A stretch of DNA of 64,000 nucleotides from a virus (lineage: Duplodnaviria; Caudoviricetes): positions 7,026 through 71,025 of IMG/VR virus record IMGVR_UViG_3300030330_006886. One strand, written 5' to 3'. Made by a program: the position numbers and the translations under genes. Position 1 is the stretch's first letter. The number at the start of each line of letters is the position of its first letter. The notes below the pieces were generated by a model. The model worked only from the letters and a program-made list of their open reading frames with translations. It ran no database searches and was not told the DNA's origin. Shown in pieces: positions 34,241-64,000 of this stretch.

Positions 34241-35013
34241 TACTGAAAAACTTGCCTAACCGATATTACACCATTTAAATAGTTTTGCGCAGAAACTGTA
34301 AGATTTTGGCTTACAATCTGGCCACTGCATCTTAACTTTTCCAAAGTATGATTTGAATTCATGTCTAGCATATGGCAAGTAATTTCCGCATGATTTCCAG
34401 AGACAGCTAGTACGTCTCCAATATTGTCTCCACGTATGGTCATGTTTACTTCAACTCCTTGTTTTGTTACTCTTGTAGGAGTTGTTTCTCCTGCTAAATA
34501 TATTGGCATTCTTTGTGCAGATACAGAATAAGAAACAGATAATGTATTGTTAATGTTTGATGGCGTACCTACAACAAAAGATCTGATACCGTGCGCATAT
34601 TTGTTTGTCCAATTGCTTAAACTTGTTGGATTGCTAAAATTAGAAGATATGTTACTTGTTAATGCGCTGTAAAAGTCCATATTAGAAGATATCATTACTG
34701 GTGAATATGGTTCTACATCTAAACTAAATGATGTTGTGTAAGCATCGGAAAATCCCAATCCGCCAAAGCTTCCGTTGCGTGTATCGGCTTCATTAATTCC
34801 AGTGATATCAAGATATGTTGGTAATGCTCCAGTCATATAATATTCAAATGACATTTGACCCTTCAGACCATTTGTCGGCGCATACCTTTCTATTTCTCCA
34901 TATATGTTTCTTGATTCTGATAATGAAGCTTCAACATTAATAGATGCCGTATCAGCAAAGATATCGTCATTACCTACTTTTACTAAAACATCTTCGTATT
35001 TTAAAAATGCCAT
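34240..35013 (-). CDS. Tube-like tail protein (possible baseplate tube ring)
   Basis: All-beta pattern; segments YTTSFSLDV and LSVSYSVSAQRMPIY resemble the tube paralogues; positioned between the tape measure and Dit. Confidence 0.5.
   Translation of the reverse strand: MAFLKYEDVLVKVGNDDIFADTASINVEASLSESRNIYGEIERYAPTNGLKGQMSFEYYMTGALPTYLDITGINEADTRNGSFGGLGFSDAYTTSFSLDVEPYSPVMISSNMDFYSALTSNISSNFSNPTSLSNWTNKYAHGIRSFVVGTPSNINNTLSVSYSVSAQRMPIYLAGETTPTRVTKQGVEVNMTIRGDNIGDVLAVSGNHAEITCHMLDMNSNHTLEKLRCSGQIVSQNLTVSAQNYLNGVISVRQVFQ
34266..34271 (-). promoter_or_regulatory. GTGTAA motif embedded in coding sequence
   Basis: GGTGTAATATC, 25 nt upstream of ATG 34240. Confidence 0.45.
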
Positions 35014-35906
35014 TATCGTTTATTAGAATATTTTTTGTAAGTTAAGTTAACTGTTATTGCGCCGCCTACATCAGAACTAAAACTTTCAGATATTAATCTA
35101 GATTTTGACAAATCAAACTTTATAATCTCACTGCCAGAATCGTCATTAATTGTTATGTCAACGGGGTGAACATGTATGCCTGTTAATGCTCCATATAAAT
35201 TCTTTGTTTCATAATCATCAATTTCAAGTGTGAAATTTGTTGTAGATTCTACTGGGTAAATTAAATCGACTTGTGCTGGCATTTTCCATTTAACATCATC
35301 ACCAAGAATATCTGCGGTTGCAGCTGTTGGTAAAGCATAAATTGGCTCTCGCGGCAATTCAACCGTGTGACTAAACGAAGTAATTCTATTTGTGCTTGAT
35401 CCGTCACATGTTAAAACTATGCCACCTTGATCTGGTACACGTATCGTGGGATTATCTGCTGCCGCTGCACCACCATTATATCTAGCATCAATACCTGGGC
35501 CTAAATCTCCAAATACAGATATAGAAGCTTGCACAGATGGAACTTCTCCAATGCCACAAGATATGCTGTAACTATTAAGGTATCCACTATGAAAACCAAA
35601 TGAACCACTTAAATTATTTTCAAGTGTTCCTCCTATGTTTGGTTTTTCATAAAATATTGTTCCACTAAAAGCATAAGTTGGCCCATCTCCTGTTAAGTTT
35701 AAAAATGGATCTTCGCTTATCAATGCGCGACTAACAGTAAAGTTGCCTTGCATTGGCTGCGATATTAATCCAGTAACATATCCAAAACCAATAAAGTTTA
35801 CATTTTTTTCTGTAACACCATAATTACCTTCAACACTTTGAACACCAGAGATACCAGTGCCATTTATAAATATTGATTGGTTATATGATAGTGAAGCGTT
35901 TTTCAT
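35013..35906 (-). CDS. Tube-like tail protein (possible baseplate tube ring)
   Basis: GYLNSYSISCGIGEVPSVQASI parallels GFITNYSVNASVGAVPTASV of 46452-47687; second half ITSFSHTVELPREPIY. Confidence 0.6.
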   Translation of the reverse strand: MKNASLSYNQSIFINGTGISGVQSVEGNYGVTEKNVNFIGFGYVTGLISQPMQGNFTVSRALISEDPFLNLTGDGPTYAFSGTIFYEKPNIGGTLENNLSGSFGFHSGYLNSYSISCGIGEVPSVQASISVFGDLGPGIDARYNGGAAAADNPTIRVPDQGGIVLTCDGSSTNRITSFSHTVELPREPIYALPTAATADILGDDVKWKMPAQVDLIYPVESTTNFTLEIDDYETKNLYGALTGIHVHPVDITINDDSGSEIIKFDLSKSRLISESFSSDVGGAITVNLTYKKYSNKR

Positions 35907-38900: not shown

Positions 38901-41900
38901 CCGCCTTTGACAAGCGCAGAATGTGGAGTTATTGGCGGTGTCGCTGCGGCTGCAAGGGTTAACGCGGTTGCCGCATTTTTAGCAAAGCCCACTCCTCTTG
39001 ACTCTCTGCCAGCTTCTACTCTTTGCCGCTCAGTCATATTAATCCGTGCCTCAGGAGACGGAGGAGGAAAAAATCCTTGAGCCATTTCGCCCAACATCAT
39101 AGTTGTGAACACAGGACCCATCGCTCGTTCTCCAGCACCTTTTAATCCAGTACTAAATCTTGCTGCAGTATCAGATATTTTTCTAAAACGACTTCTAGGA
39201 TCAACTGCAGGAGCTGGGGTACCAGCTGTTCTTCCAAATGCTCCAGTTCCTGTTGGTCTGCTAGATTTTTCTACAGCTTTGACTGTTGCAGCGCCAACTG
39301 AATCTCCTAGTTTTTTGCTAGCTTTATCGTCTATACCAGTAATTCGAACGTCTTTACCTTCGCGCATAATATAATCTGTAACATCATCAGCAAATGTCGC
39401 ACCAGCACCTCTTCTAGGTATTACGGCACCACTTCTACGCAAAGCAAAGTTTGGTAAATTCGCAGTTCTTAAATCTTCTCCTCTGTGCATTCTTCGTGCA
39501 TCTGCAAAGTTATTTTGTCCAATCGTGGGAGAAATAACTCCAAAGCCGCCAGGATTAAATGGACTTCTTAATGCTGTGTTTTGTACGACTTTTGTTTTGA
39601 CGCTAGATGGAGAAATTCCTAGCATACCACCGACTTGCATTTTTTCTCTTCTTACTGCATCTCCTATTGGAGAAAAGTTAGGGAATAATGGTGTGGCAAA
39701 TTTTCTAAAAGCTCCTCTAAAAGCTGCGCCCTTTAATCCACCAAACATTCCGTGTTCTTTAGTGCCTGGCTTCATTTGTCCAAATGGCCCTGTTCCACCC
39801 ATCATTTGATCATCTAAAAAGCTTCTCAAACCCTTACCACCTTTGATAGCACTGCCTGATACTGGATCTTTTGTATTACCTAAGAAATCATAAACTTTTT
39901 GATTTGACCTAATATGTTTACTTATCATGGACATAGAGTTTTCTCTTGACATAGTAGCTTTTACTTCCACTGGTTTACCAGATCTGTCTACTGAGTCAAT
40001 TATATAATTTTTATGATCAAAACCTGTAAGCCCATATTTTCTCATTAAAGCTTGCTCTACAGCACCTCTTTGATAGTGACTTCTAAGGGCTGCTGCTTGT
40101 CTAGATTCAGAGGTAACACTGCTACCTGTGGTTGGAAGATGTTTATTTACAGCATTATTAAATGCCCCGACTGGATCTTTAGCAAAAGCCTCTGTTCTCA
40201 TATTTGCCAATCCGTCTTTGTAAATTTTAGACATCATCTCATCGTTTACTGCAGGAATCGGACTCTTTTGGCTATAAACATCCTTATAAAAACTTTGCGC
40301 TGAGTCGGGCGTAGCAAAACCTGACCTATGAGAACCTAATCCTGCAGATATATGCGTAACATTATTAGCTTTAAAAAAGGCGCTTAACTCTTCCCCTAAG
40401 CGCGGCATTTTCTTTTTACCCTTTCTAATAGCTTTTGACAAAAAAGCGTTAACGCTGTGCTTACCTGAAAACTCGCCACCAGCACTAACTCCACCCATTA
40501 ATTGTCCAACATTAAAAACCTTGTTACCTTTTGCGTCAGTCTCAAAATGCTGAAAATTAGGCACTCCAGTAGTTGGTGCAAATGAAGGTGCTCCGCGTCT
40601 ACCTCTTCCTTTTGTTATAAAGCCTGCAGCGCTAACTCCAAAGCCGCCTGCATATGCGCCTGCTGCCATTCTTGCACTTGCCGCTGCAGCTTTTTCTCGA
40701 AGCACAACTTCTTGCGCTAAAAATCTATTTACTATTGCAGCTTGTCTTGCAGTATTTCCTTCTGCTGCTGCGATTTGCTGTTGAAACTTTACGTTTGTGG
40801 CGAGTAGCTGGCCAATGCCTTGTTGAAGTGCAGCTTGTTGTTTTGATGCATTGTTCAGTCCTAATAAGTTTTTTAAACTTTTAACACCAAATACACTTAA
40901 GTCTTTGAATAATTTCAAAAACACGCCGCCGATAACAATTAAACCTGGACCTGTTAAAACTCCTCCAATACCTCTTAGTAATCCTTTTGCAAAGTTTGAT
41001 CCCGCACCTTCACCATCTAGTCCACGAGTTGCTCCTTCTACAAGTTCGTTAAAAGTAGTAAGAATATTACGCATTCCTGGGCCAAGACTAATATCACCAA
41101 TTTTCTTTGCTAATTCTTCAACAGCTAGCCCACCCTGAGTTGCGAGTGCCGCAAGTGTTTTATTTAATTGTTGATTTTTTTGAATTGCTTGATCTGTTGC
41201 ATTTGCAGAAACTTGTTGAGCTCTGTTGTATTCATTATTAACGGTACTTAAATCTCCTAATACAGATTTTAAAATGTTGATTTGAAATTTGCCCGCAACA
41301 AACTGATCAATTGTAGCTTTTTGTGATCTATTAAGCCCATCATATGATTGTGCTAAATTTTGTAGAATTTTGTTAGCTGGTAATGCGGCACCAGCTACAT
41401 CATCAACAGCTATCTTGACGCTCCTCAGTGCCGCTAAAGCTTTGGGATCTTGTATACGAGTATAAATTGTTTTGAAAGCGTTACCAATAACAGCACCACC
41501 ACGAGCAGTTCTTTGTTGCGCTACTGTGACTAAAGCAACCAGCTCATCAAAGCTAACTCCAGCGTCTTGAGCTACAGCGCCTGCACGACTCAACGCGTCA
41601 ATCAAGTCATCTGTACCAACCGCAAATTGAACGTCAACGGCAGACAGTTTGTTAATAATCTGAGTGGTAGTAAGTCCAGCTTTGCCAAAGCCGTTAACTG
41701 CAGCAGTTAGACCTTTAACAGAGTCCGCAGCTTTTAGTCCAGTAAGACGAGTAAGAATAAGCGCATCATTTGTACGCTTTAATGTTTCTTCAATACTTAA
41801 ACCTTGACGAGCAAATTCAGTAGCAGCTTCAGCAACCACGTCAAAACTTTGTGCAGTATTTTTTGCAACTTTGAAAAGTCCATCTCCGAATTTTGCAATG

Positions 41901-42229
41901 CCTTTTTGCGAAGCACCTAAAACAATATTAATGTCGGTTAATTTTTTCTCGACATTGATTGTAGTAGCGACTAAGGATTTAAAAGCATTACTGATACCAT
42001 TGATAACACCAACGCTGGCCCCGAATGCAATAACACGAGCGTTAGAAGCTTCAATAGATTTTGTAAATTCGTCCGCATCTGCTCTTATCTTTCCAAGCAT
42101 TCTGCCCAACGGAGCTACTGCTCCTGACGATCTGCCCAAGTTTCTAAACGCCGTTGCTGCCTCGCCTTCTATCGATTTTGCAAGCGTTCCTCTTTTTGCT
42201 ACTACTGGTACTTCTATTGCTCTGGCCAT
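35906..42229 (-). CDS. Tail tape measure protein (TP901-like core, about 2107 aa)
   Basis: Ala/Gly-rich helical core (LSRAGAVAQDAGVSFDELVAL...GNAFKTIYTR); C-terminal PAMLxxGE(F/Y)V repeats. Start placed at MARAIEVP (42229), with AAGG upstream. Confidence 0.9.
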   Translation of the reverse strand: MARAIEVPVVAKRGTLAKSIEGEAATAFRNLGRSSGAVAPLGRMLGKIRADADEFTKSIEASNARVIAFGASVGVINGISNAFKSLVATTINVEKKLTDINIVLGASQKGIAKFGDGLFKVAKNTAQSFDVVAEAATEFARQGLSIEETLKRTNDALILTRLTGLKAADSVKGLTAAVNGFGKAGLTTTQIINKLSAVDVQFAVGTDDLIDALSRAGAVAQDAGVSFDELVALVTVAQQRTARGGAVIGNAFKTIYTRIQDPKALAALRSVKIAVDDVAGAALPANKILQNLAQSYDGLNRSQKATIDQFVAGKFQINILKSVLGDLSTVNNEYNRAQQVSANATDQAIQKNQQLNKTLAALATQGGLAVEELAKKIGDISLGPGMRNILTTFNELVEGATRGLDGEGAGSNFAKGLLRGIGGVLTGPGLIVIGGVFLKLFKDLSVFGVKSLKNLLGLNNASKQQAALQQGIGQLLATNVKFQQQIAAAEGNTARQAAIVNRFLAQEVVLREKAAAASARMAAGAYAGGFGVSAAGFITKGRGRRGAPSFAPTTGVPNFQHFETDAKGNKVFNVGQLMGGVSAGGEFSGKHSVNAFLSKAIRKGKKKMPRLGEELSAFFKANNVTHISAGLGSHRSGFATPDSAQSFYKDVYSQKSPIPAVNDEMMSKIYKDGLANMRTEAFAKDPVGAFNNAVNKHLPTTGSSVTSESRQAAALRSHYQRGAVEQALMRKYGLTGFDHKNYIIDSVDRSGKPVEVKATMSRENSMSMISKHIRSNQKVYDFLGNTKDPVSGSAIKGGKGLRSFLDDQMMGGTGPFGQMKPGTKEHGMFGGLKGAAFRGAFRKFATPLFPNFSPIGDAVRREKMQVGGMLGISPSSVKTKVVQNTALRSPFNPGGFGVISPTIGQNNFADARRMHRGEDLRTANLPNFALRRSGAVIPRRGAGATFADDVTDYIMREGKDVRITGIDDKASKKLGDSVGAATVKAVEKSSRPTGTGAFGRTAGTPAPAVDPRSRFRKISDTAARFSTGLKGAGERAMGPVFTTMMLGEMAQGFFPPPSPEARINMTERQRVEAGRESRGVGFAKNAATALTLAAAATPPITPHSALVKGGLVLAGTGAAYLAGHSAGGQGNLSLDERGLLLESTMIQRQNDQTLGDTARQALIAASESRSNPSQFKGALQKGRDALKDIKDPTLKSKLTKAFNEAEQSGGFSKGVRTMGEIQTQEASRISDNVTRKRAGLALHSLIDNRDTMTDEQLRGVASDLSSLSREDQQKINALLLSGGNIRDLNFLESMGIGFTQANEFKENIGQGDLRNQGLLGDSKLGRLMRELNTAGPSGPGPLGGPEGINLQPEFDAMRLNLLRSRTGNTQFQAREAGAARVRGISQQARLDLVGRFGGARATAREAFLDQMNEANLQKNLDQRNLASDFAGRFGALPLSATPQNQKLMQTLSSALAGGDIGAAVAATDKLKFGAGKVEFEGSELDIMDDSRKKLQEFAENLKNSAKLLEINANAQEDFIKAQKKMADLMSKNGPLIAGIEGFKNSLQSALQSIADPSMSASKIGMNLLMGTLGSINQQASGQVADFVGGKLGNFFGIGTPDKGQRGMYISGSRTGDKNPAMLEDGEYVLNRNAVKAMGGPGALDSINFGMFPRFQNGGVFGGVPSKHRKKALDKFGHASFGPSGGGSAAGGGGIGLNLGIFNPNLSSLAHANDPTLQATRGFLRQERQKDIQKQFQKQAERDQLVSTVVSTGINVGLSALMSGNLFKKKFTPDQSLIDTAAGYGHGDQSPGAADLPAPGFNMVPGPLSLTPFGGRQGTPMAPRFTGTASANRAIRMSDQHFQLGKNLASGMSMNKAVAQSDAHGGRAGALMNTFRKAGIKPGDRAAMAQHMYNEALSVGGKYGVIPLPEHRGLGGLGIHQKFEQAIEKQVDDTVFEYLSTDEPLFDPTRQMRGLNIKDANDKLFRQQYPDIFMPKKQRGGSIDNIPAMLTGGEFVVNAGAVRKYGSNMLNSMNRFQSGGMVGNQKFVPQEGSAKSSDASSSTNNNTVNIAVNMGATGPTISEDASGTNNDRQSNGRDLGRKIRHAVLQVIESEKRVGGKLRDPYAKP

Positions 42230-42253
42230 GGGTCCAATTATCCTTATATGCAA

Positions 42254-42259
42254 TTACAC
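42254..42259 (-). promoter_or_regulatory. GTGTAA motif
   Basis: TGTGTAATTGCATATAAGG, 24 nt upstream of the tape measure ATG 42229. Confidence 0.6.
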
Positions 42260-42266
42260 ATAAAAA

Positions 42267-43265
42267 TTAACCCATTCCACTTAATTTCATTAAATCTTCC
42301 ATGTTTAAGGTGCCGCCCTTTTTCTTTGCCGCTTCTTCTAAGGAAACTGTTCCAGCTCCTTGCGTTTCAATACCTAATGATTCAAGGTCTTCTTTTGTCG
42401 CTCCAAACAAGCCTGCTCCGCCTTCGCCAGATTTTTCCATAACTTCTCTTGCTTTTTCTCTACCTTTAGGATTTCTTGCCCAATCCATAAGTTTTTGCGG
42501 ATCTTTGCGTATTTTAAAAGGTATTTCTTCTCCAGAATTAAATATGTTTTTAAACATTACAGTATAAGAGTATAATCTTAATTGATAATGTGTTAAAAGA
42601 GTAGTAGGTTTTCCGAAAAAGTCTAACGGTTTATCACAGCACTGCATATACGGTCCGTAAAAATCTTCTAAAACCATTTTTTGAAAATTTAAATCAGAAT
42701 ATGTTCCAAATATTTCATTATATATAGCATTAACTATTGATAATTCAGTATTTGATAATTCGTCAAATAATTGTTGTGTAAAAACAGCATCTTCAAATTT
42801 TATGTCATAATAAAAGCTTTTTATAATATACAAATCAATACAACGTTTTTCCGCATAATCTTCACAAGTATTACCCAACAGTCCTCTTCTTATTTTTAGT
42901 TTTTCGTCCAGCTCTTCGCGAGCTTTGTGAATCAGTTCGTCTTGTCTATCTATTTGACTCTGCAAATATAATCCAGCTTTATTGTCTATCAAGCTTTGAA
43001 TAAAAGAGCGTTGATCTGATATATCTTTTTCGTCTTTATCTGTCCAATCGCCACTGTCTTTTAGAAATTTTAATACTTCTTTTTCTTCAGGGATTCCTCT
43101 TTGCTTTGCGCGTTCTAAATGCTCTAATCTGTAATCATCCAGATCAACTTGTTCATTAACGCCAAGATGCTTAACGTAGATTTTTTTGTTGTTATAATAA
43201 TTTATTGAATGTCCGCGAACAACATCACGAAAAATGCGCTTGAACAGTGTTTGTTCTAAACCCAT
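42267..43265 (-). CDS. Hypothetical protein, tail assembly chaperone-like by position
   Basis: Helical and charged; immediately upstream of the tape measure; TAATG overlap with the upstream gene. Confidence 0.5.
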   Translation of the reverse strand: MGLEQTLFKRIFRDVVRGHSINYYNNKKIYVKHLGVNEQVDLDDYRLEHLERAKQRGIPEEKEVLKFLKDSGDWTDKDEKDISDQRSFIQSLIDNKAGLYLQSQIDRQDELIHKAREELDEKLKIRRGLLGNTCEDYAEKRCIDLYIIKSFYYDIKFEDAVFTQQLFDELSNTELSIVNAIYNEIFGTYSDLNFQKMVLEDFYGPYMQCCDKPLDFFGKPTTLLTHYQLRLYSYTVMFKNIFNSGEEIPFKIRKDPQKLMDWARNPKGREKAREVMEKSGEGGAGLFGATKEDLESLGIETQGAGTVSLEEAAKKKGGTLNMEDLMKLSGMG

Positions 43266-44026
43266 TAAACATTACCTTCTTCAATATCTTTATCTAGCTG
43301 TTCAATGTCTGCGCGAGTTACTCCCGCCGTAAAATACCAATAACTTACAAAGGTTGCAAGTTTTGATTGAACTAGTAAATATAATTCGTCTTGAGCTTCA
43401 TCAAGTTCATAATAATGATTTTCTTTTTGTTCAAAAGAGTCTCCTACAAACAATGGCTCTGGATCTTCTTCTCCTCTTGCGACATATGCTAAATTTAAAA
43501 CGTACCACAAAATAACTCTGTTTTGAGCTTTAGTGTCCGCAGTATGATTAAACAAAGAAGCATATGCAGTTTCAGTATCAACAATGTCTCTGCGTAGCGC
43601 CGCGATATCTTGAATTAATTGTTTTTCTTTTTCTTCATCTTCTTCTGTGCGATCTCCCGTTTTTGTATTTAGTCTTGTGAAATCAGTTTGAAGTTGATTT
43701 AGTTGTCCGTATTTTTGAGTTAATACTTGAGCATCAGTTTCTGCCATCAATCCGCCAGAATCACTATATTTTTTAGCAAGCATAGCTTTTGTAAGAATGC
43801 CTCTTTTGATGCATTGACTAATTTCAATGCTATACTCCATATCAGCTTCTTCAATTTGTCTGCGATTAGGCTCTTTCAAAATAACCCGCACAGGCTCTTT
43901 TTCTGTAAACTTTTCATTGACAGACACTGTTTTTTCTTCACCAGTATCTTTATCAATAATTGTTTTTTCGACTTTCTTTTCTTTTTCCTTTGAAAGTTCG
44001 ACTGTAAAGCTATATATTTCGTTCAT
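43265..44026 (-). CDS. Hypothetical protein, tail assembly chaperone-like
   Basis: Acidic coiled coil; VILKEPNRRQIEEAD segment; position upstream of the tape measure. Confidence 0.5.
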   Translation of the reverse strand: MNEIYSFTVELSKEKEKKVEKTIIDKDTGEEKTVSVNEKFTEKEPVRVILKEPNRRQIEEADMEYSIEISQCIKRGILTKAMLAKKYSDSGGLMAETDAQVLTQKYGQLNQLQTDFTRLNTKTGDRTEEDEEKEKQLIQDIAALRRDIVDTETAYASLFNHTADTKAQNRVILWYVLNLAYVARGEEDPEPLFVGDSFEQKENHYYELDEAQDELYLLVQSKLATFVSYWYFTAGVTRADIEQLDKDIEEGNV

Positions 44027-44044
44027 ACCTTGATCCTTATTATA

Positions 44045-44332
44045 TTAATTTTTAAATTGAAATTCTATTGTGAACTTATCTAAATCATCGTCATTATTGC
44101 GAATATTTTCATTGCCCATATCTAATACTTTTTTACGAAGATATTGCATCTTCTTTTCGTCGAAATAATCAGCCTGTTCGATTAATTCTTTATGATTGGG
44201 TAAATTTTTGCGAAGTTTGCAAAAATGAATGTCATGGTCTGTTTTTAAATCTTCTAATAAAATTAAAAATGTCTTAAATAATTTCTTAGTATTACGACCA
44301 TAATAATCGCCTAATAATCCTTTTGCGTCCAT
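44045..44332 (-). CDS. Hypothetical protein (95 aa)
   Basis: AAGG-type RBS and GTGTAA motif upstream; first gene of the leftward tail operon. Confidence 0.6.
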   Translation of the reverse strand: MDAKGLLGDYYGRNTKKLFKTFLILLEDLKTDHDIHFCKLRKNLPNHKELIEQADYFDEKKMQYLRKKVLDMGNENIRNNDDDLDKFTIEFQFKN

Positions 44333-44358
44333 AATTTAAACCTTAAACCTAAATTATA

Positions 44359-44385
44359 TTACACAAAAAACAATAAAAAGTGTAA
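44359..44385. promoter_or_regulatory. Back-to-back divergent GTGTAA motifs
   Basis: Minus copy 44359-44364 faces ATG 44332; plus copy 44380-44385 faces ATG 44394. Confidence 0.7.
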
Positions 44386-44393
44386 AGAAAAGC

Positions 44394-44846
44394 ATGGCAA
44401 GTTTACTTACAGCTACGGATAAATCAGCATTGAATGATGTCATGGACAGTCTCCATGATACTTTTGCACGCGATATCCAGATAATCAAAGAAGCCACAAA
44501 AACAGTTACAACTCCTAGTTCAGAGTTTAACTCTGTTTACGGAACCGCTGGATCAACAACAAGTGTTGTAAATGTAACACAATCTGGCAGTTACAAAGCG
44601 AGAGTTCAATATATGAATCAAAACGAAGAATATTTTGCAGATTCTCAACTTGACTCTCAATTAAAAATTAAAATGCCTGCAGGTAGCGTAAGAATCAAGG
44701 TTTCTGGAGATGCACATAGTTATTTAAAAGATGCAAAACGTGTCCAACTGGATGGCAGAAGGTTTACTATTTTTAGTGATTATAGACCGCATGGACTTTT
44801 TGATGCGAGATTTTACACTTATTATTTAAAGCCAATCGATGAGTAG
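44394..44846 (+). CDS. Putative head closure/stopper protein
   Basis: 150 aa beta-rich (YKARVQY...VRIKVS...RVQLDGRRFTI...YYLKP); first gene of the neck block. Confidence 0.55.
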   Translation: MASLLTATDKSALNDVMDSLHDTFARDIQIIKEATKTVTTPSSEFNSVYGTAGSTTSVVNVTQSGSYKARVQYMNQNEEYFADSQLDSQLKIKMPAGSVRIKVSGDAHSYLKDAKRVQLDGRRFTIFSDYRPHGLFDARFYTYYLKPIDE

Positions 44847-45420
44847 AGTAGTAGTTCCAGCTGGAGCAATTGATATTGTTTATAAACAAACTGGCAAATT
44901 TCTCAGGAAAGATGTAGAGTCTAGACTGATAAAAGAGTTTGAAATATTAAAACAAGAAATGCTTGCAGAATTTAATAACCACCCAGTAACGCAAGAGCTC
45001 GAGCGTGGAGTTGACGCAGATCCAAGTGCATTTGTCAGTAAAGGCAGTTTATTTGGATTTATTGGATTTAACAAAAATGATGAACCAGTAAGAACCGTAA
45101 GAAATATGCTAGAATCTTCTTATATAGCATTTATCCGAGTAAAAAACGCAATAGTTGACTTTAAAATATATTATCCATCTAAAGAGGAACTGTTTGATGC
45201 AACTCCATTACCGTATGCTACGGGCAGAAGCTGGTTAAAAGGTATAGAAACTGGATTATCTGGTCTTGGCAGATATTTAAACGTAGAATCAGACGCTAGT
45301 AGGTCTGGAGGAGGCATTCAAAGTCAATCAAAAATCCGCGGCGGAAGATTTAAAAATACTAAATACATATCAGAAATACTAAACAACTTTTTACTAAAAG
45401 TAAATAAATTATCACTATGA
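44839..45420 (+). CDS. Putative neck/tail-completion protein
   Basis: Basic; ELFDATPLPYATGRSWLKGIE; position between the closure-like and terminator-like genes. Confidence 0.45.
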   Translation: MSRVVVPAGAIDIVYKQTGKFLRKDVESRLIKEFEILKQEMLAEFNNHPVTQELERGVDADPSAFVSKGSLFGFIGFNKNDEPVRTVRNMLESSYIAFIRVKNAIVDFKIYYPSKEELFDATPLPYATGRSWLKGIETGLSGLGRYLNVESDASRSGGGIQSQSKIRGGRFKNTKYISEILNNFLLKVNKLSL

Positions 45421-46340
45421 AACCACAATTTCAACATACATTAATGACCAGCTTTTTTCTTTGGTTTGACAACTATTTGCAAAAGTATGGAGACGCTTAC
45501 AAAAACAAAACTGGCGTATTTTATAATATGACAGATGACAGATTATCAAGTGATTATAACGTTTATTCGTCACAATATAAACAATTTATATTTGATAGTG
45601 GCTTGCATAGCGGAGTTGTAAATTCACAAGGAACTCAGGGTGCAATAGTTCTCGACAGAGTCAGTGGCCAAAGAGAGGATGGCACAGCTTTTGAAATACC
45701 TCGCGGAACAAGTGGTTTAACAATAGATTATGATAACGGTAGAGTATTTTTTACTGGTGACGATTCTGGAAATGTGCCTGGCAATGATTTATCTTTGAGT
45801 GGTCAATTCGCGGTAAAAGACTTTAATATATATATGACAAACCAAACAGAAGAAGATTTGGTTATTGAAAAATTTAAAACAAATGATAGATTTGGTGCTA
45901 TTAACACAACTGGAGTAGAACCTTATGATCAAGTTTTACCAGCAGTTTTTGTTACTTCTGAAAGTGTGCAAAATGAACCATTTGCTTTTGGCGGATTAGA
46001 TATCACAAAAACAAACGTAAAAGCTGTTGTTATGACTAGTGATTTATATTGTTTAGACTGCGTATTGTCATTAGCGGCGGATGCTCAAAAAAGATCTTTT
46101 GTGCAAGTTGACTTTGAAGATTTTCCTACAACTGAATTTGGAGATATAAAGTCAGCAACTTATCCTACAGGATACAGCTACAATCAAGTAGAAAGTGACG
46201 CATCTGACAGTTTGTTTCATATTGAGTCTGTAGACGTTTCAAAATTAAGTGATCGTGTCAAAAAGCGTGTGAATCCTAACATTTTTATAGGGTTTATTGA
46301 TTTTGAAATACACAAATATCGTTCGCCTAGAGCAAATTAA
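45417..46340 (+). CDS. Putative tail terminator/neck protein
   Basis: LPAVFVTSESVQNEPFAFGG...TNVKAVV...FIDFEI pattern; immediately before the major tail gene. Confidence 0.5.
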   Translation: MKPQFQHTLMTSFFLWFDNYLQKYGDAYKNKTGVFYNMTDDRLSSDYNVYSSQYKQFIFDSGLHSGVVNSQGTQGAIVLDRVSGQREDGTAFEIPRGTSGLTIDYDNGRVFFTGDDSGNVPGNDLSLSGQFAVKDFNIYMTNQTEEDLVIEKFKTNDRFGAINTTGVEPYDQVLPAVFVTSESVQNEPFAFGGLDITKTNVKAVVMTSDLYCLDCVLSLAADAQKRSFVQVDFEDFPTTEFGDIKSATYPTGYSYNQVESDASDSLFHIESVDVSKLSDRVKKRVNPNIFIGFIDFEIHKYRSPRAN

Positions 46341-46346
46341 GTGTAA
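46341..46346 (+). promoter_or_regulatory. GTGTAA motif
   Basis: Directly after the stop at 46340, upstream of the major tail gene, followed by an inverted repeat. Confidence 0.55.
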
Positions 46347-46451
46347 AGTAAAGTATAAAGTTGACTTTTAACTTTATATAAGTTTAGAAAAAATTTCACA
46401 TTACAGTAGAAATGTTGTAAACAACAATAACCTTAAACCTTTTTAAACATC

Positions 46452-47687
46452 ATGGCAAGAAACAGAGTAATTTATCAAAGTGAAGCGTTGTTTGTGACCC
46501 ACCAATATACTGGTAAACATACAATCGACTTAGTAACCAATGGAATTGGAGGAGTTGGGGGTGCTGCCACCAATTTTGCAGCTGCACATGGAAGTATTCC
46601 CCTAGATGCAATGCACCAAATCCATCGCGTTCAAAGTGCAAACTACAACTTTGCAATTAATAGAACCGATATCAATCAATTTGGACAGCTAGCTCGTATA
46701 GACACAGCTGTAATTGATGCTCCAACTGTAGGGCTAGATTTTACATATTTAGTAACAAACGGTGTAAATGAAGACGCGCTAGGTATTTCAGTCGACAGTG
46801 CAAATGACATCACTCCTACGTGTTCTGCCATTTCTGGTATCCTTTCAAATATTTCTGGTAGAAACTATCATATTCTAACGGTAAAAGAAGGAGAAGATGC
46901 CAATGGCGGCGGAGCTCAAGCTGATAGCACAAGCACTGTAATTTCAATTGGTAATGGATTTATCACTAACTATAGCGTTAACGCGTCAGTTGGTGCAGTT
47001 CCAACAGCCAGCGTCTCTGTTGAAGGGTTAAACATTAACGCTCAAACTGCAGCGGCGACAATGACCACTCCAGCAATTGACCCTGACGCTGGGACACAGG
47101 GTACTGCGACATTTGGATTGCCTGCCCCAGTTACTGGTTCTGTTGGAGAAGTAATTAGGCCTGGTGATATACAGGTATTATTTGCTGGCTCTAGCAATAA
47201 TCAAGGAACGGGAGTCTTGACTAACTTAGTTGACAGCGCCTCTGCAACTTCTGCGCATATTAATAGTTTTTCAATTGATTTGCCATTAGGCAGAAGCGTA
47301 TTACAAAGATTAGGAAATTCTTTTGGCTTTGCCAGAGAAATCGACTTCCCAGTTCAAGTATCTGTTAGTGTATCTGCTACTGTTGCAGATTTAAAAGCAG
47401 GCAATTTGTTCGACGAATTGTACGATAATACAAAACACGATATTGTCTTGAAAATGCATAAAAATGCTGCTGGCGGAAGTAGCGCTGGAGTTAACGCGCA
47501 AGGTCAGTTAGCTTATGTTATCAAAAATGCAACGCTAGACAGCGAATCATTTAGCTCAAGCATTGGAGATAATAAATCTGTTGATTTATCATTTACTGCT
47601 ACTATTGGTGGTCCACAAGATACAACAAACGGATTGTTTATTTCTGGAACTCAGTGTGGAAATAATGATATTAGAAGTTCAGAATAA
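46452..47687 (+). CDS. Major tail tube protein candidate (internally duplicated)
   Basis: 411 aa Ser/Thr/Gly-rich beta protein; two related halves (RVQSANYNFAINRTDINQFG and HINSFSIDLPLGRSVLQRLG); long dedicated upstream intergenic region. Confidence 0.7.
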   Translation: MARNRVIYQSEALFVTHQYTGKHTIDLVTNGIGGVGGAATNFAAAHGSIPLDAMHQIHRVQSANYNFAINRTDINQFGQLARIDTAVIDAPTVGLDFTYLVTNGVNEDALGISVDSANDITPTCSAISGILSNISGRNYHILTVKEGEDANGGGAQADSTSTVISIGNGFITNYSVNASVGAVPTASVSVEGLNINAQTAAATMTTPAIDPDAGTQGTATFGLPAPVTGSVGEVIRPGDIQVLFAGSSNNQGTGVLTNLVDSASATSAHINSFSIDLPLGRSVLQRLGNSFGFAREIDFPVQVSVSVSATVADLKAGNLFDELYDNTKHDIVLKMHKNAAGGSSAGVNAQGQLAYVIKNATLDSESFSSSIGDNKSVDLSFTATIGGPQDTTNGLFISGTQCGNNDIRSSE

Positions 47688-47712
47688 AATACCATTAAAT
47701 ATAAGTTATATT

Positions 47713-47742
47713 TTACACCACAGTCTTTTGATTGTGGTGTAA
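47713..47742. promoter_or_regulatory. Hairpin whose right arm is the GTGTAA motif
   Basis: TTACACCACA-GTCTTTTGAT-TGTGGTGTAA; plus-strand GTGTAA at 47737-47742, 12 nt before ATG 47755. Confidence 0.65.
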
Positions 47743-47754
47743 TTTTATATAGGC

Positions 47755-48972
47755 ATGAGGAACAGGATAGCATATCAAAACGTAGGATTATTGGTTGGAC
47801 CGACTCCAGCATATTCACTTCATACTGGTTCTCACACTAGTACTCCGAATCACCAGTACGTCCCTAGCAAGCTTAAACAAATAAATCTAGTACAAAGTGC
47901 CTCTTTTAATTTTAACGTCGCTAGAACGGAAATACAGCAAATTGGCGGCCATTCTCTTACTACTAGAAAGGCTGTAGTTCAACCTGACGTATCTATAGGC
48001 TTCACTTATTTATTAAGTGATGGGAGAAATGAAGGCATGTTGGGCTTTTGCCCATCTGGAGAAAGTTCTGCATTCTTATCTGGCCAACAAAATACAAGCG
48101 GAGATAGAAATTTATTTTTAATAGTTAGCGAAAAACAAGAACAAGATTTTAATCTTGTAAATAATTTTTCTAATCAAAGTGTTTTTGGTTTTGGCAACTG
48201 TGTTCCAACAAACTATAGTATACAGGCTTCTGTTGGCTCGATTCCTACTGCATCCGTAGAATATTTAGCATCTAATGTTAAGTTTGATACAACAAGCGGC
48301 ACAATGAGTTTTCAAGATGCGCACGGTACAGTTTGCACTATTGGTTCTGGTCTAATTCCAGCAGTGAACCCAGCTGATGGTCAACCTGCCACAAATCCCT
48401 ATGGATACGTATTAAGGACTGGCGACTTTGCTCAATCCCCAGGAACAAACTTTCATACAATGGGCCATCAAAATAGCGGAGATATACATTATTTAAGACC
48501 TGGTGATGTCCAAATGGCTTTTAAAGAAACGACAGTTGGCGGTATCAACCTATCTGGATCAAATAAAATGCACATTACGGACGTTAGTATAGACGTTCCA
48601 ATAAATAGAACTGAATTATTTGGATTTGGGTCTAGGTATGCATACGATAGAAGGGCAAAATTTCCATCTTTAGGGAACATAAGTTTTACAGCCACAGCTA
48701 ATAATATAGAAGATGGTAACGTAAACGATATATTTTCCGAAGATAATGATTATGATTTTACTTTGACTTTTATGGATCCCACGAGTGATTTGGGAAGTGA
48801 TCGTAAACCCTCCAACAAAGCTATTGAAATAGAAATAACCAAAGCTAGACTACAAAATCAAAATTTTGGACAGTCAATAGGCAGCAATATGGAAGTTAGT
48901 GCCACCTTTACATTTGAATGTAATCCAATTACTGGATTTAAGTTTAGTGGAATTGCTAAAGGCGATATTTAA
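47755..48972 (+). CDS. Tail tube paralogue
   Basis: MRNRIAYQ, VQSASFNFNVARTEIQQIG, IGFTYLLSDGRNE, FGFGNCVPTNYSIQASVG and LRPGDVQ are collinear with 46452-47687. Confidence 0.7.
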   Translation: MRNRIAYQNVGLLVGPTPAYSLHTGSHTSTPNHQYVPSKLKQINLVQSASFNFNVARTEIQQIGGHSLTTRKAVVQPDVSIGFTYLLSDGRNEGMLGFCPSGESSAFLSGQQNTSGDRNLFLIVSEKQEQDFNLVNNFSNQSVFGFGNCVPTNYSIQASVGSIPTASVEYLASNVKFDTTSGTMSFQDAHGTVCTIGSGLIPAVNPADGQPATNPYGYVLRTGDFAQSPGTNFHTMGHQNSGDIHYLRPGDVQMAFKETTVGGINLSGSNKMHITDVSIDVPINRTELFGFGSRYAYDRRAKFPSLGNISFTATANNIEDGNVNDIFSEDNDYDFTLTFMDPTSDLGSDRKPSNKAIEIEITKARLQNQNFGQSIGSNMEVSATFTFECNPITGFKFSGIAKGDI

Positions 48973-60602: not shown

Positions 60603-61427
60603 CTAACTTGAACGTTTAGTGTTTACACTTTTATTTTGTCTTGTGGCTCTTTTTTTAGCTGAAGCAGGAGTTTCTTGTAGTTTTTCGAGCTTACCAACAA
60701 TAAATTTAAGTATTTCGCTTCTTACAATATCCTCCTTGTAAAAGTCAAAACAATATATGCCTTTTTCGTTAGATTCTTTATCATTAAAAAGATTTGATAT
60801 AGTTTTAAATCCGCTTTTACCATTAATGTCACTTTGCATAGGATCACCGCAAATAAATAATTTACTATTTTCTCCTAGTCTTGTTATTAAGGTGGTTAGC
60901 TCTTTTGCGGTAAAGTTTTGAGATTCATCTGCAATAATAATTTTATTAATCCAGTTTGAGCCACGCAAGTAATTTATGGGCATAGCATTTATGATTTTCT
61001 TTTGTTCTAAAAAGTTTCTTTCTTGTGAAGCTATCATTTCTTCAAGCTTATCATTTAGTGGCATCATAAAAGGATTAAACTTTTCATTAACGTCTCCTGG
61101 AAGCGAGCCCAAACCTTTTTCGCCACTCTCAGCAATAGTACGAACATACATAATATCATAATCGTTGTTAATATTGAAGAGTTGAAGTGCAGTATATACA
61201 GCCAAATAAGTTTTGCTTGTTCCAGCGGGACCGCGTACAAACATCATTTTCGTATCTTTAGCAATCGATAATTTTAAAAATTGTTTTTGTTTTTCAGTAA
61301 ACTTTACTGGGTTTAATTTTATTTTTTTCTTTTTCAAAGAAGACATGCAATCTATTATGTTGTTTTCGTCAGTTTCGCAAATAACGTCAGCATTAGACAC
61401 CGCCTTGATAGCAGATTTTCTAGCCAT
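60603..61427 (-). CDS. phoH: PhoH-family ATPase
   Basis: GPAGTSKT, LGSLPGD..EKFNPF, YLRG, IIADESQN, LITRLGENSK..ICGDPMQSD, DIVRSE. Confidence 0.95.
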   Translation of the reverse strand: MARKSAIKAVSNADVICETDENNIIDCMSSLKKKKIKLNPVKFTEKQKQFLKLSIAKDTKMMFVRGPAGTSKTYLAVYTALQLFNINNDYDIMYVRTIAESGEKGLGSLPGDVNEKFNPFMMPLNDKLEEMIASQERNFLEQKKIINAMPINYLRGSNWINKIIIADESQNFTAKELTTLITRLGENSKLFICGDPMQSDINGKSGFKTISNLFNDKESNEKGIYCFDFYKEDIVRSEILKFIVGKLEKLQETPASAKKRATRQNKSVNTKRSS

Positions 61428-61477: not shown

Positions 61478-61483
61478 TTACAC
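61478..61483 (-). promoter_or_regulatory. GTGTAA motif
   Basis: AGTGTAATATATTA, 50 nt upstream of the phoH ATG 61427. Confidence 0.55.
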
Positions 61484-61492
61484 TAAAACTTG

Positions 61493-64000
61493 TTATATTC
61501 TATAACGAATTACCTCTTCTGAGACAACGTTTCCTGCTCCGCCAATAAAAATTTCTTTTTCAGTTGCGGCTAATGCGGTTTCTGGTCTCCCATGTCTATC
61601 AGTACCTCCAACTCCAGAATATTGTATTTCTTGCGTCTGGGTCCAGCTAGAACCTTCTCCAGTAAATACATAAGCAGCGCCTTTATTAGCATCACCTCTG
61701 CCTGGCGCGCCCACAACAATTTTATGAGCGGTTGGCATTGATACAGTGTAGCCAAATAAATCGTTTGCCGCAGCAGCAGTTTGACTAAGCGTAGCTGCGT
61801 ATTTCCATCGAGTTGGCTTAGACTTATAATTTTTTGCGTCACTTGCCGCGTCGTTAAATCCTGTAAATACAAAAACTGCTCCAGCATTAGAAGTTCCATT
61901 GTGATCGCCACTAGGAGCGCCGACTACAATAGTATTTTCAAAAATGTCTACGTCAGTGCCAAAAGCTGAATTTTGAGTTACACCTTCGGTTGATCCATAC
62001 TTAGTACCAGTTAAATTTGCAACAACCCTATAATTCCCGATTGCGTCACCATCTCCTTGTGTGGCAACATAAACCAAAGCAGATCCCGAAGGGTGCGTGC
62101 CTGCTAGAATATTATTTTCAGGCGCACCAGCAACAATAACCCCTTTGTGCATTGCTACACTATGCCCCAATCTTTGACCTGCCGTGAAAATTTGACCAGC
62201 CAAGTCTAAACTGGCTGTTCCTATCTGGGCCTCACTAAACGCATCAACTGCAGAAGTTTTATATCCGTTTGTAACTGTTCCTTTGAATAAATATATCGCT
62301 CCATGATTTCCAGTGCTACCAACAGTTTGATGTGGTGCACCTATAACTCCGAGCTGTTGACCGTCACCACTAACAGATTTATCAAAAGCAATATCGTCTG
62401 AGTATCTGATGTTATTTGTAGCGTCAGTTAAAACAGTGTTAATTGTAAAAGAGTTTTTGGCATCATTAGGTTCAAAAATTGAAACCGATCCATCATCTCC
62501 AGCCGCATCTGGGGTCGCAATTGCGATCAATCCACTAGGGCTAACGGCCACTGCACCGCCAAAATTATGATGCCTGCTATCATCTGGTAATTTTGCAGTA
62601 TTGCTTAATCCAGCTTGTCTAATTCCCGCTTCTCCGCTTGTTTGGTGGATTTGCTTGTAGAAACCTTTTTCTTTTTTATAAATATATGCTGCACCATTTT
62701 CGAATGTGTCACCCCCGCCAATAAATCCGCTTGCACCAATAACCAAAAAGTCATCATTTGCCGCAACAGCGCTGCCAAAGCTAAATATACCATAGCCTTG
62801 ATCAGTTTTTGTGTCTGTTGACATTCCTGTTTCAATTACTTGTAACTGCTCATAATTTCCAGAAGAATTCATTGTAAATGATCCACCCAAAGAGCCATCT
62901 GCTACATTTTTAGGATCACCTAATTGTGCCGTAAAAGTATAATCAGCGCTTCTGTTGTCACCAATGGACATACCATAAGATTCGCTTTCCAATGTAGCAT
63001 TTTTTAATATATATACAATAGACTTGTCTCCCTGCTTTGCTCCAGCGCTAGAAGGTTTATGCATTGTTATTTTAATATCATTTTTATTATTAGCGTAAAC
63101 TTCTTCAAACAAAGATCTTGTTTCATCTGGGCGATCTGCTAAAATAGCAGAAATGCTGACAGATGCAGTAATCGGAGTATCTAAAACTTTTGAGTACCCA
63201 AACGAGTTACCAATTCTTTGTAAAGTCGTTCTTCCTAATGGCACATCAATAGAAAAACTTTGTATATGAGCAGAATTTGCTCCAGCACTATCAGATATTA
63301 AACTTAATAAAGCGCCAGTACCAAAGTCAACCTCAATGTCGCCTGGTAATAATTGCGCTACACCGTCTCCAGTGCTTATATATTCATTTGGTATAACATA
63401 TGTTTCGGTAGATTTTGTGCCATCTTTTATGTTAATTCCTGGGCTGTCTCCAGCTTTATTGCCAGCATCAACTTTTATGTTAAAAGCTTCTGCAGAAACT
63501 GAAGCAATTGGCAACCCTCCAACTGAAGCATTTACGGAATAATTTGTTACATAACAGTTTCCAATTCCAATAACACTTTTATTACCATCTGATTGAGCTT
63601 CTAAATCTGAAATTGACCCTATAGCATCATTTTTTTGATCAGCTGTATAAATATAAAAATTTCTACCATCTTGATCGTTTATAAAACTTTCTGATAAAAA
63701 ATTAGAATTTTCAGCATTGTCGAATCCTAACAGATTTTCGTTTTGGCCATCAGTGAGGTAATAACTAAAGTCTAAAGAAACGGTTGGTGCAGATAAGACT
63801 GCAGAGTCTATTCTGGCTAATTGGCCAAACTGATAGGTATCAGTTCGATTAATAGAAAAACCATAATTAACATTCTGGACTCGCTTTAGCTGCCTGATTA
63901 AGCTTTCTCCTGCGCCTCCGTCATTTAGATATTGTGACCCTGTTGCTGACGGAGCCACCATCAAAATTTCATTTGAATAAATTGTCCTGTTTCTTGCCAT
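61493..64000 (-). CDS. Tail-tube-like domain fused to FG-GAP beta-propeller (835 aa)
   Basis: First ~385 aa collinear with 46452-47687 (MARNRTIY, FSINRTDTYQFGQLARIDSAV, HIQSFSIDVPLGRTTLQRIGNSFG); then about seven FG-x-x-VA...VVGAP...GAVYVF repeats. Confidence 0.85.
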   Translation of the reverse strand: MARNRTIYSNEILMVAPSATGSQYLNDGGAGESLIRQLKRVQNVNYGFSINRTDTYQFGQLARIDSAVLSAPTVSLDFSYYLTDGQNENLLGFDNAENSNFLSESFINDQDGRNFYIYTADQKNDAIGSISDLEAQSDGNKSVIGIGNCYVTNYSVNASVGGLPIASVSAEAFNIKVDAGNKAGDSPGINIKDGTKSTETYVIPNEYISTGDGVAQLLPGDIEVDFGTGALLSLISDSAGANSAHIQSFSIDVPLGRTTLQRIGNSFGYSKVLDTPITASVSISAILADRPDETRSLFEEVYANNKNDIKITMHKPSSAGAKQGDKSIVYILKNATLESESYGMSIGDNRSADYTFTAQLGDPKNVADGSLGGSFTMNSSGNYEQLQVIETGMSTDTKTDQGYGIFSFGSAVAANDDFLVIGASGFIGGGDTFENGAAYIYKKEKGFYKQIHQTSGEAGIRQAGLSNTAKLPDDSRHHNFGGAVAVSPSGLIAIATPDAAGDDGSVSIFEPNDAKNSFTINTVLTDATNNIRYSDDIAFDKSVSGDGQQLGVIGAPHQTVGSTGNHGAIYLFKGTVTNGYKTSAVDAFSEAQIGTASLDLAGQIFTAGQRLGHSVAMHKGVIVAGAPENNILAGTHPSGSALVYVATQGDGDAIGNYRVVANLTGTKYGSTEGVTQNSAFGTDVDIFENTIVVGAPSGDHNGTSNAGAVFVFTGFNDAASDAKNYKSKPTRWKYAATLSQTAAAANDLFGYTVSMPTAHKIVVGAPGRGDANKGAAYVFTGEGSSWTQTQEIQYSGVGGTDRHGRPETALAATEKEIFIGGAGNVVSEEVIRYRI

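What the first reader, a model, noticed from the sequence alone, without database searches (positions are those of the whole stretch)
61493..64000. Third tail-tube paralogue, displaced from the tail module and fused to a seven-bladed FG-GAP propeller
Seen: residues ~1-385 align block by block with 46452-47687 (for example QFGQLARID is identical, and the LGRxxLQRxGNSFG block is shared). They are followed by about seven FG-GAP repeats (FGSAVA, FGGAVA, LGHSVA, FGTDVD, FGYTVS...). The gene sits over 12 kb from the other tube genes, upstream of phoH. Established: siphophage tubes often carry Ig or FN3 appendages; I do not recall integrin-alpha-like propellers on tube subunits. Inference: a minor ring that co-polymerises into the tail and displays adhesive propellers, or a variant tube subunit.
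Basis: partly seen in the sequence, partly recalled or inferred. Interest (0 to 1): 0.75.

Follow-up and report, generated by a model that had tools for sequence, protein, structure and literature searches.

The report
Tail-tube copy carrying an integrin-like propeller
An uncultured marine phage has an extra copy of its tail-tube gene fused to a seven-bladed integrin-like propeller that varies between near-identical phages, so it most likely puts a swappable adhesion module on the outside of the tail.

Summary
The minus-strand ORF 61493-64000 (835 aa) has an N-terminal ~372 aa that is 44% identical (E 3e-95) to the 411-aa protein at 46452 and 29% identical to the 405-aa protein at 47755. Its AlphaFold model (pLDDT 85) is a tandem double tail-tube fold, with Z 21 to T5 pb6 and P74-26 TTP and Z 18 to T5 p140. 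Residues ~384-835 form a seven-bladed FG-GAP_2 propeller that matches integrin alpha propellers (Foldseek E 1e-14).

The gene is a duplicate of the 411-type tube gene. It heads the phoH-sigma-terminase-head operon in six related contigs. The tube half is under strong purifying selection (dN/dS 0.04). The propeller is only 43% identical in a phage whose neighbouring genes are 95-99% identical.

The architecture is unannotated but not rare: at least 41 marine metagenome clusters carry it. Other family members carry BspA-type LRR or Ig modules instead.

Best reading: a minor ring-forming tube subunit that displays an exchangeable adhesin. It is a gene-duplication counterpart of the lactococcal TpeX and SPP1 gp17.1* tube extensions. 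Ring position, copy number and ligand are untested.

This is a new variant of a known kind. The scan noted the same architecture on another genome.

The parts
61493..64000 (-). Complete 835-aa gene: tandem tail-tube domains plus a FG-GAP propeller. First gene of the leftward phoH-sigma-nuclease-terminase-portal-capsid gene string.
   Evidence: ORF. Three family copies in the record. Same position in L004-L009.
63386..64000 (-). Tube domain 1 (about residues 1-205), including the conserved N-terminal arm MARNRxIY.
   Evidence: Model pLDDT 85. This half matches monocin, SPP1 and phage 812 tube proteins at Z 8-9. The N-terminus is shared with the 411-aa and 405-aa paralogues.
62885..63385 (-). 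Tube domain 2 (about residues 206-372).
   Evidence: This half matches Hcp and CIS tube proteins at Z 8-9. The whole domain matches T5 pb6 at Z 21.1, P74-26 TTP at 20.7 and T5 p140 at 18.2.
62786..62884 (-). Short linker (about residues 373-405). It includes strand 384-390, which appears to complete blade 7 of the propeller.
   Evidence: DSSP of the full-length model. Identity to the G001 allele drops across this segment, 69%.
61496..62785 (-). Seven-bladed FG-GAP_2 beta-propeller (residues 406-835), the hypervariable part.
   Evidence: Pfam PF14312 E 4.9e-25. Foldseek to integrin alpha propellers E 1e-14. 43% identity to the allele in an otherwise 95-99% identical phage.
46452..47687 (+). 411-aa undecorated tandem tube protein. 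It is the closest paralogue and the inferred major tube protein.
   Evidence: 44% identity. Sister clade of the fused genes in the tree. Conserved beside the 405-type in all related loci.
47755..48972 (+). 405-aa divergent tube paralogue. It co-varies with the tape-measure region.
   Evidence: 29% identity. A separate long-branched clade. 48% identity in G003, where the 2115-aa protein is 54% and head genes are 96-100%.
35013..35906 (-). 297-aa remote fourth member of the tube family, just after the 2115-aa presumed tape measure. Candidate T5-p140-like or baseplate ring.
   Evidence: hhalign against A1: probability 97.5%, E 5e-12.
60603..61427 (-). phoH, immediately downstream, with its own GTGTAA box at 61478-61483.
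   Evidence: PF02562 E 4.3e-47. Box found.

Best explanation
The gene encodes a minor structural subunit of a long non-contractile tail.

Shown: the N-terminal 372 residues are a tandem-duplicated tail-tube module of the T5 pb6/p140 and P74-26 type. The module descends from a duplication of the phage's own 411-type tube gene and is kept under strong purifying selection.

Inferred: like its solved relatives, it assembles as a trimer into a pseudo-hexameric ring that stacks on rings of the 411-aa protein, using the conserved N-terminal arm and loops. Each ring would then project three propellers from the outer wall of the tube on a short linker of about 10 residues.

Shown: the C-terminal 450 residues are a seven-bladed FG-GAP_2 propeller. 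It evolves about six times faster than the tube half and differs sharply between otherwise near-identical phages.

Inferred: the propeller is an exchangeable binding module for a host-surface or particle-associated ligand, probably a glycan or surface protein. It would add reversible, multivalent adhesion along or at one end of the tail. I favour one or a few dedicated rings over bulk incorporation, because an undecorated 411-type and a 405-type tube gene are conserved throughout the lineage and the fused gene is an accessory of one sub-lineage.
For: Fold:
- The N-domain model has pLDDT 85.3 and pTM 0.87.
- Foldseek E 2e-12 to T5 p140, T5 pb6, SH-Ab15497 MTP and P74-26 TTP.
- VIA Z 21.1 / 20.7 / 20.6 / 18.2, with each half matching single tube/Hcp domains.
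- BFVD neighbours are annotated tail tube or major tail protein.

Origin:
- The fused clade (support 100/99) is sister (94/93) to the sub-lineage's 411-type genes, inside a 411-type superclade (100/100).
- All 26 near-invariant positions of the family are kept.

Selection:
- Tube half dN/dS is 0.038. dN is 0.089 for the tube half against 0.529 for the propeller.

Module exchange:
- In G001 the tube half is 88% identical and the propeller 43%, while phoH, sigma, TerL and the 668-aa protein are 97-99% identical.

Family trend:
- Other members carry BspA-type LRR_5, He_PIG Ig or FG-GAP_2 C-terminal modules, with proteins up to 1516 aa scanned and up to 1904 aa listed.

Regulation:
- A conserved AAAAAAGTGTA(T/A) box lies about 22 nt before the ATG in four relatives. 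It resembles the GTGTAA boxes before virion genes.

Precedents:
- T5 p140 is a tube paralogue that forms one dedicated trimeric ring (PMC10038345).
- Lactococcal MTP-TpeX extensions carry CBMs that bind host cells specifically (PMC6669499).
Against: - No multimer modelling, virion proteomics or expression data could be obtained, so ring formation, stacking partner, copy number and position are all inferred.
- The gene lies outside the tail module, next to non-structural genes (phoH, sigma factor).
- The propeller lacks the integrin-type Ca2+ loops, and no ligand-binding site can be named.
- The full-length model has only moderate confidence (pLDDT 67.6), so the propeller's orientation relative to the tube is unknown.
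- The fused gene stays 97.5% identical in G003 although the 405-type gene and the 2115-aa protein are swapped there (48-54%). This says nothing positive about which partner it contacts.
Confidence: 0.6

Rival explanations
1. Fibre-docking collar. The fused protein forms one ring whose three propellers serve as the platform that anchors the giant side fibres. This would merge into one chain the roles of the T5 p140 ring and the p132 collar.
For: In T5 a tube-paralogue ring (p140) carries the collar to which the side fibres attach. The window encodes several giant fibre-like proteins of 1243+, 3623, 1595 and 1460 aa. In G001, where the propeller allele differs, the N-terminal 1010 aa of the 3623-aa protein are also more diverged (74%) than its neighbours (88-95%).
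Against: A better p140 candidate, the undecorated 297-aa protein, sits right after the presumed tape measure. Other family members carry LRR and Ig adhesin-type modules, which suggests ligand binding rather than a structural socket. The covariation with the fibre rests on a single genome pair.
Confidence: 0.15
2. Bulk co-polymer. The fused subunit mixes freely with the 411-aa protein in rings all along the tube, like the frameshift-made gp17.1* or TpeX forms, so the whole tail is sparsely coated with propellers.
For: It is a recent duplicate of the 411-type gene with a conserved N-terminal arm and core. TpeX and gp17.1* are incorporated this way.
Against: 55% sequence divergence from the 411-aa protein and a 19-residue deletion after the N-arm suggest a specialised interface. 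In a trimeric ring of double-domain subunits, mixed rings would need heteromeric lateral contacts. No data bear on stoichiometry.
Confidence: 0.15
3. Not a virion part. It could be a soluble or cell-associated tube-like protein used during infection, for example as an assembly factor, a decoy or a superinfection block. That would fit its position among non-structural genes.
For: The gene sits beside phoH, a zinc-ribbon gene and a sigma factor, 12.5 kb from the tail genes.
Against: The full tube fold and all family-invariant residues are retained, with dN/dS 0.04. The same gene string continues into terminase, portal-sized and capsid-sized genes. A virion-type promoter box lies upstream. I know of no non-virion role for a tandem tube protein (own knowledge).
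Confidence: 0.05

Closest known systems
Bacteriophage T5 tail tube protein pb6 and its paralogue p140 (PDB 9INY, 7QG9, 9IOZ, 5NGJ)
   Same: Tandem duplication of the tail-tube domain in one chain (Z 21.1 to pb6, 18.2 to p140). pb6 carries a C-terminal decoration on the outside of the tube. p140 shows that a tube paralogue can form one dedicated trimeric ring.
   Different: Sequence identity is only 13-14%. The pb6 decoration is a small Ig-like domain, not a 450-residue propeller. p140 is undecorated and encoded in the baseplate region, whereas this gene is displaced to the head of the packaging operon and is a recent duplicate of the tube gene (44% identity, against 9% for pb6/p140).
Lactococcal 936-group MTP extension TpeX and SPP1 gp17.1* (PMC6669499)
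   Same: A sub-population of tube subunits carries a large, variable C-terminal binding module on the tail surface. TpeX binds host cells specifically.
   Different: Those forms are made by a programmed frameshift of the single tube gene and carry CBM or FN3 folds on a hexameric single-domain tube. Here a separate duplicated gene encodes the decorated form, the tube module is the trimeric double-domain type, and the module is a FG-GAP propeller.
Integrin alpha-subunit head propeller / Pfam FG-GAP_2 (PF14312)
   Same: A seven-bladed propeller built of FG-GAP repeats (Foldseek E 1e-14, TM about 0.6; Pfam 87.9 bits).
   Different: 14-17% identity. No D-x-D-x-D-G-x-x-D Ca2+ loops. No beta-subunit partner. 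The single RGD at residue 768 is not conserved in orthologues and is taken as chance.
Thermus phage P74-26 tail tube protein (PDB 8ED0)
   Same: A fused double tube domain that forms trimeric rings (Z 20.7).
   Different: No external decoration. It is the single tube gene of that phage.

Membership tests
Tandem-duplicated siphophage tail tube proteins (T5 pb6/p140, P74-26 TTP type) | Two tail-tube (Hcp-like) beta-sandwich domains in one polypeptide | tested here: met
   VIA Z 21.1, rmsd 3.6 A over 302 residues, to T5 pb6. Residues 1-205 and 210-385 each match single tube/Hcp domains at Z 8-9. Foldseek E 2e-12.
Tandem-duplicated siphophage tail tube proteins (T5 pb6/p140, P74-26 TTP type) | Assembles into trimeric pseudo-hexameric rings that stack into a tube | not testable with these tools
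   No multimer prediction was available. The only support is retention of the N-terminal arm and of all 26 near-invariant family positions.
Tandem-duplicated siphophage tail tube proteins (T5 pb6/p140, P74-26 TTP type) | Encoded in a tailed-phage genome with packaging and long-tail genes | tested here: met
   TerL (phrog_2 E 1e-26, PF03237). Two further tube paralogues. The 2115-aa ORF in the tape-measure position was not itself tested.
T5 p140-type adaptor ring | Undecorated tube paralogue encoded with the baseplate genes, surrounded by a separate collar protein | tested here: not met
   The protein carries a 450-aa propeller and lies 12.5 kb from the tail genes. The undecorated 297-aa gene after the presumed tape measure fits better.
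FG-GAP_2 repeat propellers (Pfam PF14312) | FG-GAP_2 HMM above the gathering score | tested here: met
   87.9 bits against a cut-off of 23, three stretches.
FG-GAP_2 repeat propellers (Pfam PF14312) | Seven four-stranded blades forming a closed propeller | tested here: met
   DSSP of the model gives seven blades. Propeller blocks mostly have pLDDT 70-90. The top 50 Foldseek hits are integrin alpha propellers.
Integrin alpha subunits proper | Ca2+-binding D-x-[DN]-x-[DN]-G-x-x-D hairpins in the last blades | tested here: not met
   A regular-expression scan found none.
Frameshift-made tube extensions (TpeX, gp17.1*) | The extension is produced by a programmed frameshift at the end of the single major tail gene | tested here: not met
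   The fused protein is one uninterrupted ORF at a separate locus. The 411-aa gene ends with a stop and is followed by the 405-aa gene.

The most novel reading that the evidence does not exclude
In this large uncultured marine phage lineage, the duplicated tandem tube gene is a general chassis for host recognition. Dedicated tube rings carry interchangeable propeller, BspA-LRR or Ig modules and act as primary or co-primary receptor-binding stations on the tail shaft, or as the collar that anchors the giant fibres, rather than as mere accessory decoration. Host range would then be set partly by swapping alleles of a tube gene.
Probability: 0.3. Interest if true: 0.7.

Novelty: new variant of a known kind. 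Interest (0 to 1): 0.55.

Why it matters
Tail-tube decorations known so far are small Ig or FN3 domains, or CBMs added by frameshifting. Here a separate, duplicated tube gene carries a 450-residue integrin-like propeller. The same chassis carries LRR or Ig modules in related phages.

If these rings bind host or particle surfaces, they are a second, easily exchanged specificity determinant besides the fibres. The phage lineage is widespread in the sea: the stretch was found in runs from 13 studies, and the protein family has about 1000 clusters at 50% identity. It would also give a natural example of how new ring types arise in a tail by duplication of the tube gene, as inferred for T5 p140.

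Tried and rejected
Searches that found nothing for the N-domain:
- Pfam and PHROGs gave nothing. The only hit was a weak phrog_290 'minor tail' match for the 405-aa paralogue.
- PDB by sequence and by profile gave only noise.
- tblastn against 50,697 phage records found no relative of the tube half. It found one 24% match of the propeller, in Sinorhizobium phage Phosso.

Tools that did not run:
No transcript presence or population-variant data were obtained. All runs are kept as contigs in any case.
- The search for related loci with alignment A1 failed for lack of a conserved stretch.

Ideas dropped:
- Host assignment. Family relatives sit in MAG bins of Verrucomicrobiota, Neomarinimicrobiota, Flavobacteriales, Halobacteriovorax and others. 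This is too inconsistent to name a host.
- Integrin-like Ca2+ loops: none found.
- RGD at residue 768: not conserved in orthologues, so treated as chance.
- The 257-aa gene at 34240-35013 as a further tube paralogue: not supported (hhalign probability 0.5%).
- The nested 113-aa ORF at 61570-61911 is an out-of-frame shadow of the main gene.

Full report
**What is there.** The finding's coordinates hold one complete gene on the minus strand, 61493-64000, 835 aa. Its ATG is the last codon of the window. The window end is also the end of a 71,025-base IMG/VR record that CheckV rates about 48% complete, so the record was trimmed at this gene start. The record holds three copies of the N-terminal module. 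BLASTP gives 44% identity (E 3e-95) over residues 1-369 against the 411-aa protein at 46452-47687. It gives 29% identity (E 2e-41) against the 405-aa protein at 47755-48972. The gene immediately downstream is phoH (PF02562, E 4e-47).

**The N-terminal half is a tail-tube module.** Sequence libraries are silent: no Pfam, no PHROG, no PDB hit by sequence or profile, and no cultured phage by tblastn. An exhaustive phmmer search found 1035 representative clusters at E<=1e-3, most of them 360-420 aa. An AlphaFold2 model of residues 1-385 was built on 68 of them and has pLDDT 85.3 and pTM 0.87.
- Foldseek against the PDB puts T5 p140, T5 pb6, the SH-Ab15497 major tail protein, the DT57C tube and the P74-26 tube on top, at E 2e-12 to 1e-9.
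- VIA-align gives Z 21.1 to T5 pb6 (rmsd 3.6 A over 302 residues), 20.7 to P74-26 TTP, 20.6 to SH-Ab15497 MTP and 18.2 to T5 p140.
- The next rows, at Z 8-9, are single tube or Hcp domains that match either residues 1-205 or residues 210-385.
- BFVD neighbours are annotated tail tube, major tail or minor tail proteins.

The module is therefore the tandem-duplicated tube type. In T5 and P74-26 this type forms trimeric, pseudo-hexameric rings (PMC10038345).

**The C-terminal half is a seven-bladed FG-GAP propeller.** Pfam FG-GAP_2 scores 87.9 bits against a cut-off of 23. The full-length model, built on 39 orthologues, has moderate confidence overall (pLDDT 67.6), but most 10-residue blocks in the propeller lie between 70 and 90. 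It shows seven four-stranded blades at 407-455, 483-525, 536-592, 614-663, 684-738, 752-793 and 810-834. Strand 384-390 apparently completes the last blade. All top Foldseek hits are integrin alpha head propellers (E 1e-14, target TM about 0.6). Integrin-type Ca2+ loops are absent. The RGD at residue 768 is not conserved in orthologues. The linker between the tube module and the propeller is only about 10 residues long.

**Origin and context.**
- In six related viral contigs the gene occupies the same place. It is the first gene of the string phoH, zinc ribbon, sigma factor, 350-aa gene, ERCC4 nuclease, TerL, 668-aa and 538-aa genes (TerL).
- Near-identical contigs (L004, L005) show what the trimmed record lacks. 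A divergently transcribed ankyrin-repeat gene lies 60 bp upstream.
- The intergenic region is conserved. It carries AAAAAAGTGTA(T/A) about 22 nt before the ATG, and a GTGTAA box for the ankyrin gene on the other strand.
- Across the wider lineage a 411-type plus 405-type gene pair, preceded by the 150-, 193- and 307-aa genes and facing the 95-, 253- and 332-aa genes, is conserved in all ten loci examined. Some lineages have extra tandem copies or N- or C-terminal extensions.
- In a maximum-likelihood tree the fused genes form one clade (100/99). That clade is sister (94/93) to the 411-type genes of the same sub-lineage and lies inside a 411-type superclade (100/100). The 405-type genes are separate and long-branched. 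The fused gene is therefore a duplicate of the 411-type gene that moved and gained a propeller.
- A remote fourth family member is the 297-aa gene right after the presumed tape measure (hhalign probability 97.5%). The 257-aa gene next to it is not a member.

**Evolutionary behaviour.**
- Against contig G001, the packaging and head genes are mostly 93-99% identical (two small ones 83-85%) and the other tail genes 84-99% identical. The fused gene is 63% identical overall: 88% in the tube half and 43% in the propeller.
- Synonymous sites are saturated across the whole fused gene (pS 0.72-0.78), whereas neighbouring phoH has pS 0.17. The whole allele has therefore been replaced from a more distant source.
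- Within it the tube half is tightly constrained (dN/dS 0.038; dN 0.089). The propeller has changed about six times faster (dN 0.529).
- Against G003 the reverse mosaic is seen. The fused gene is 97.5% identical, while the 405-type gene (48%), the 2115-aa protein (54%) and the 253- and 332-aa genes (65-67%) are swapped.
- The 405-type gene thus travels with the tape-measure block. The fused gene does not.

**How common is the architecture?** A word-indexed search restricted to proteins of 459-1462 aa found at least 41 full-length clusters at 90% identity (802-901 aa). They combine this tube module with PF14312. Those with a listed source come from metagenome collections, and none carries a functional name. 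Longer family members carry BspA-type LRR_5 arrays, He_PIG Ig domains or further FG-GAP_2 repeats after the tube module. Two full-text searches found no paper that describes a propeller on a tail tube protein. The same architecture was noted by this scan on another genome (e1-6030985). The DNA occurs in marine, estuarine and seawater metagenomes from 13 studies.

**Interpretation.**
- Shown: a tandem tube fold, a seven-bladed FG-GAP propeller, descent from the 411-type tube gene, a conserved displaced position, purifying selection on the tube half, and hypervariability of the propeller.
- Inferred: the protein forms trimeric rings that join the tail tube and expose three propellers per ring, and the propeller is an exchangeable binding module.

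The closest functional precedent is the lactococcal MTP-TpeX extension, a large variable CBM on a subset of tube subunits that binds host cells specifically (PMC6669499). There, and in SPP1, the decorated form is made by frameshifting. Here it is made by a second gene. The closest structural precedent for a dedicated ring is T5 p140. That protein is undecorated and encoded with the baseplate genes, and the 297-aa gene fits that role better.

I favour one or a few dedicated rings, confidence 0.6 for the overall reading. The rivals are a fibre-docking collar (0.15), free co-polymerisation along the tube (0.15) and a non-virion role (0.05).

**What could not be done.** Ring position, stoichiometry, expression and ligand therefore remain open.

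**Verdict.** It is a new variant of a known kind, decorated tail-tube subunits. It is of moderate interest because of the size and type of the module, the gene-duplication route, and the evidence that the module is swapped between close relatives.

Noticed in passing
window 64000 (record end); L005 1-10000, L004 1-10000: The IMG/VR record is cut exactly at the ATG of the fused gene and is labelled provirus. Near-identical contigs continue upstream with a 517-aa ankyrin-repeat gene that has its own GTGTAA box, a tubulin/FtsZ-like gene, a DUF1552 (HXXSHH) gene, a cytidylyltransferase and an Amt ammonium transporter. The trimmed-off side is therefore probably still phage DNA with unusual auxiliary genes.
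   Followed up: partly
window 35013-35906 (-): The 297-aa gene directly after the 2115-aa presumed tape measure is a remote member of the same tube family (hhalign probability 97.5%, E 5e-12). Its size and position recall T5 p140. The adjacent 257-aa gene shows no such relation.
   Followed up: partly
window 35906-48972 compared with G003 (L087/L088): A tail-module swap. In G003 the 405-aa tube paralogue (48%), the 2115-aa protein (54%) and the 253- and 332-aa genes (65-67%) are replaced, while head and packaging genes stay 96-100% identical. The 411-aa gene is 83% identical in both G001 and G003.
   Followed up: partly
L077 9692-16098; L079 8846-16811; L045 11267-13741: Related phages carry three tube paralogues in tandem inside the tail module. 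Some have N-terminal extensions of about 380 aa or C-terminal extensions of about 400 aa. Other family members reach 1904 aa and carry BspA-type LRR arrays.
   Followed up: partly
L092, L093 (genome contigs): The best family relatives in binned genomes lie on contigs of Coraliomargarita and Puniceicoccaceae (Verrucomicrobiota) MAGs. Others lie in Neomarinimicrobiota, Flavobacteriales and Halobacteriovorax bins. This may hint at a host or may be a binning artefact.
   Followed up: no
window 61478-61483 (-) and 61978-61983 (-): A GTGTAA box sits between the stop of the fused gene and phoH, so phoH probably has its own promoter. Another copy lies inside the propeller-coding region.
   Followed up: no
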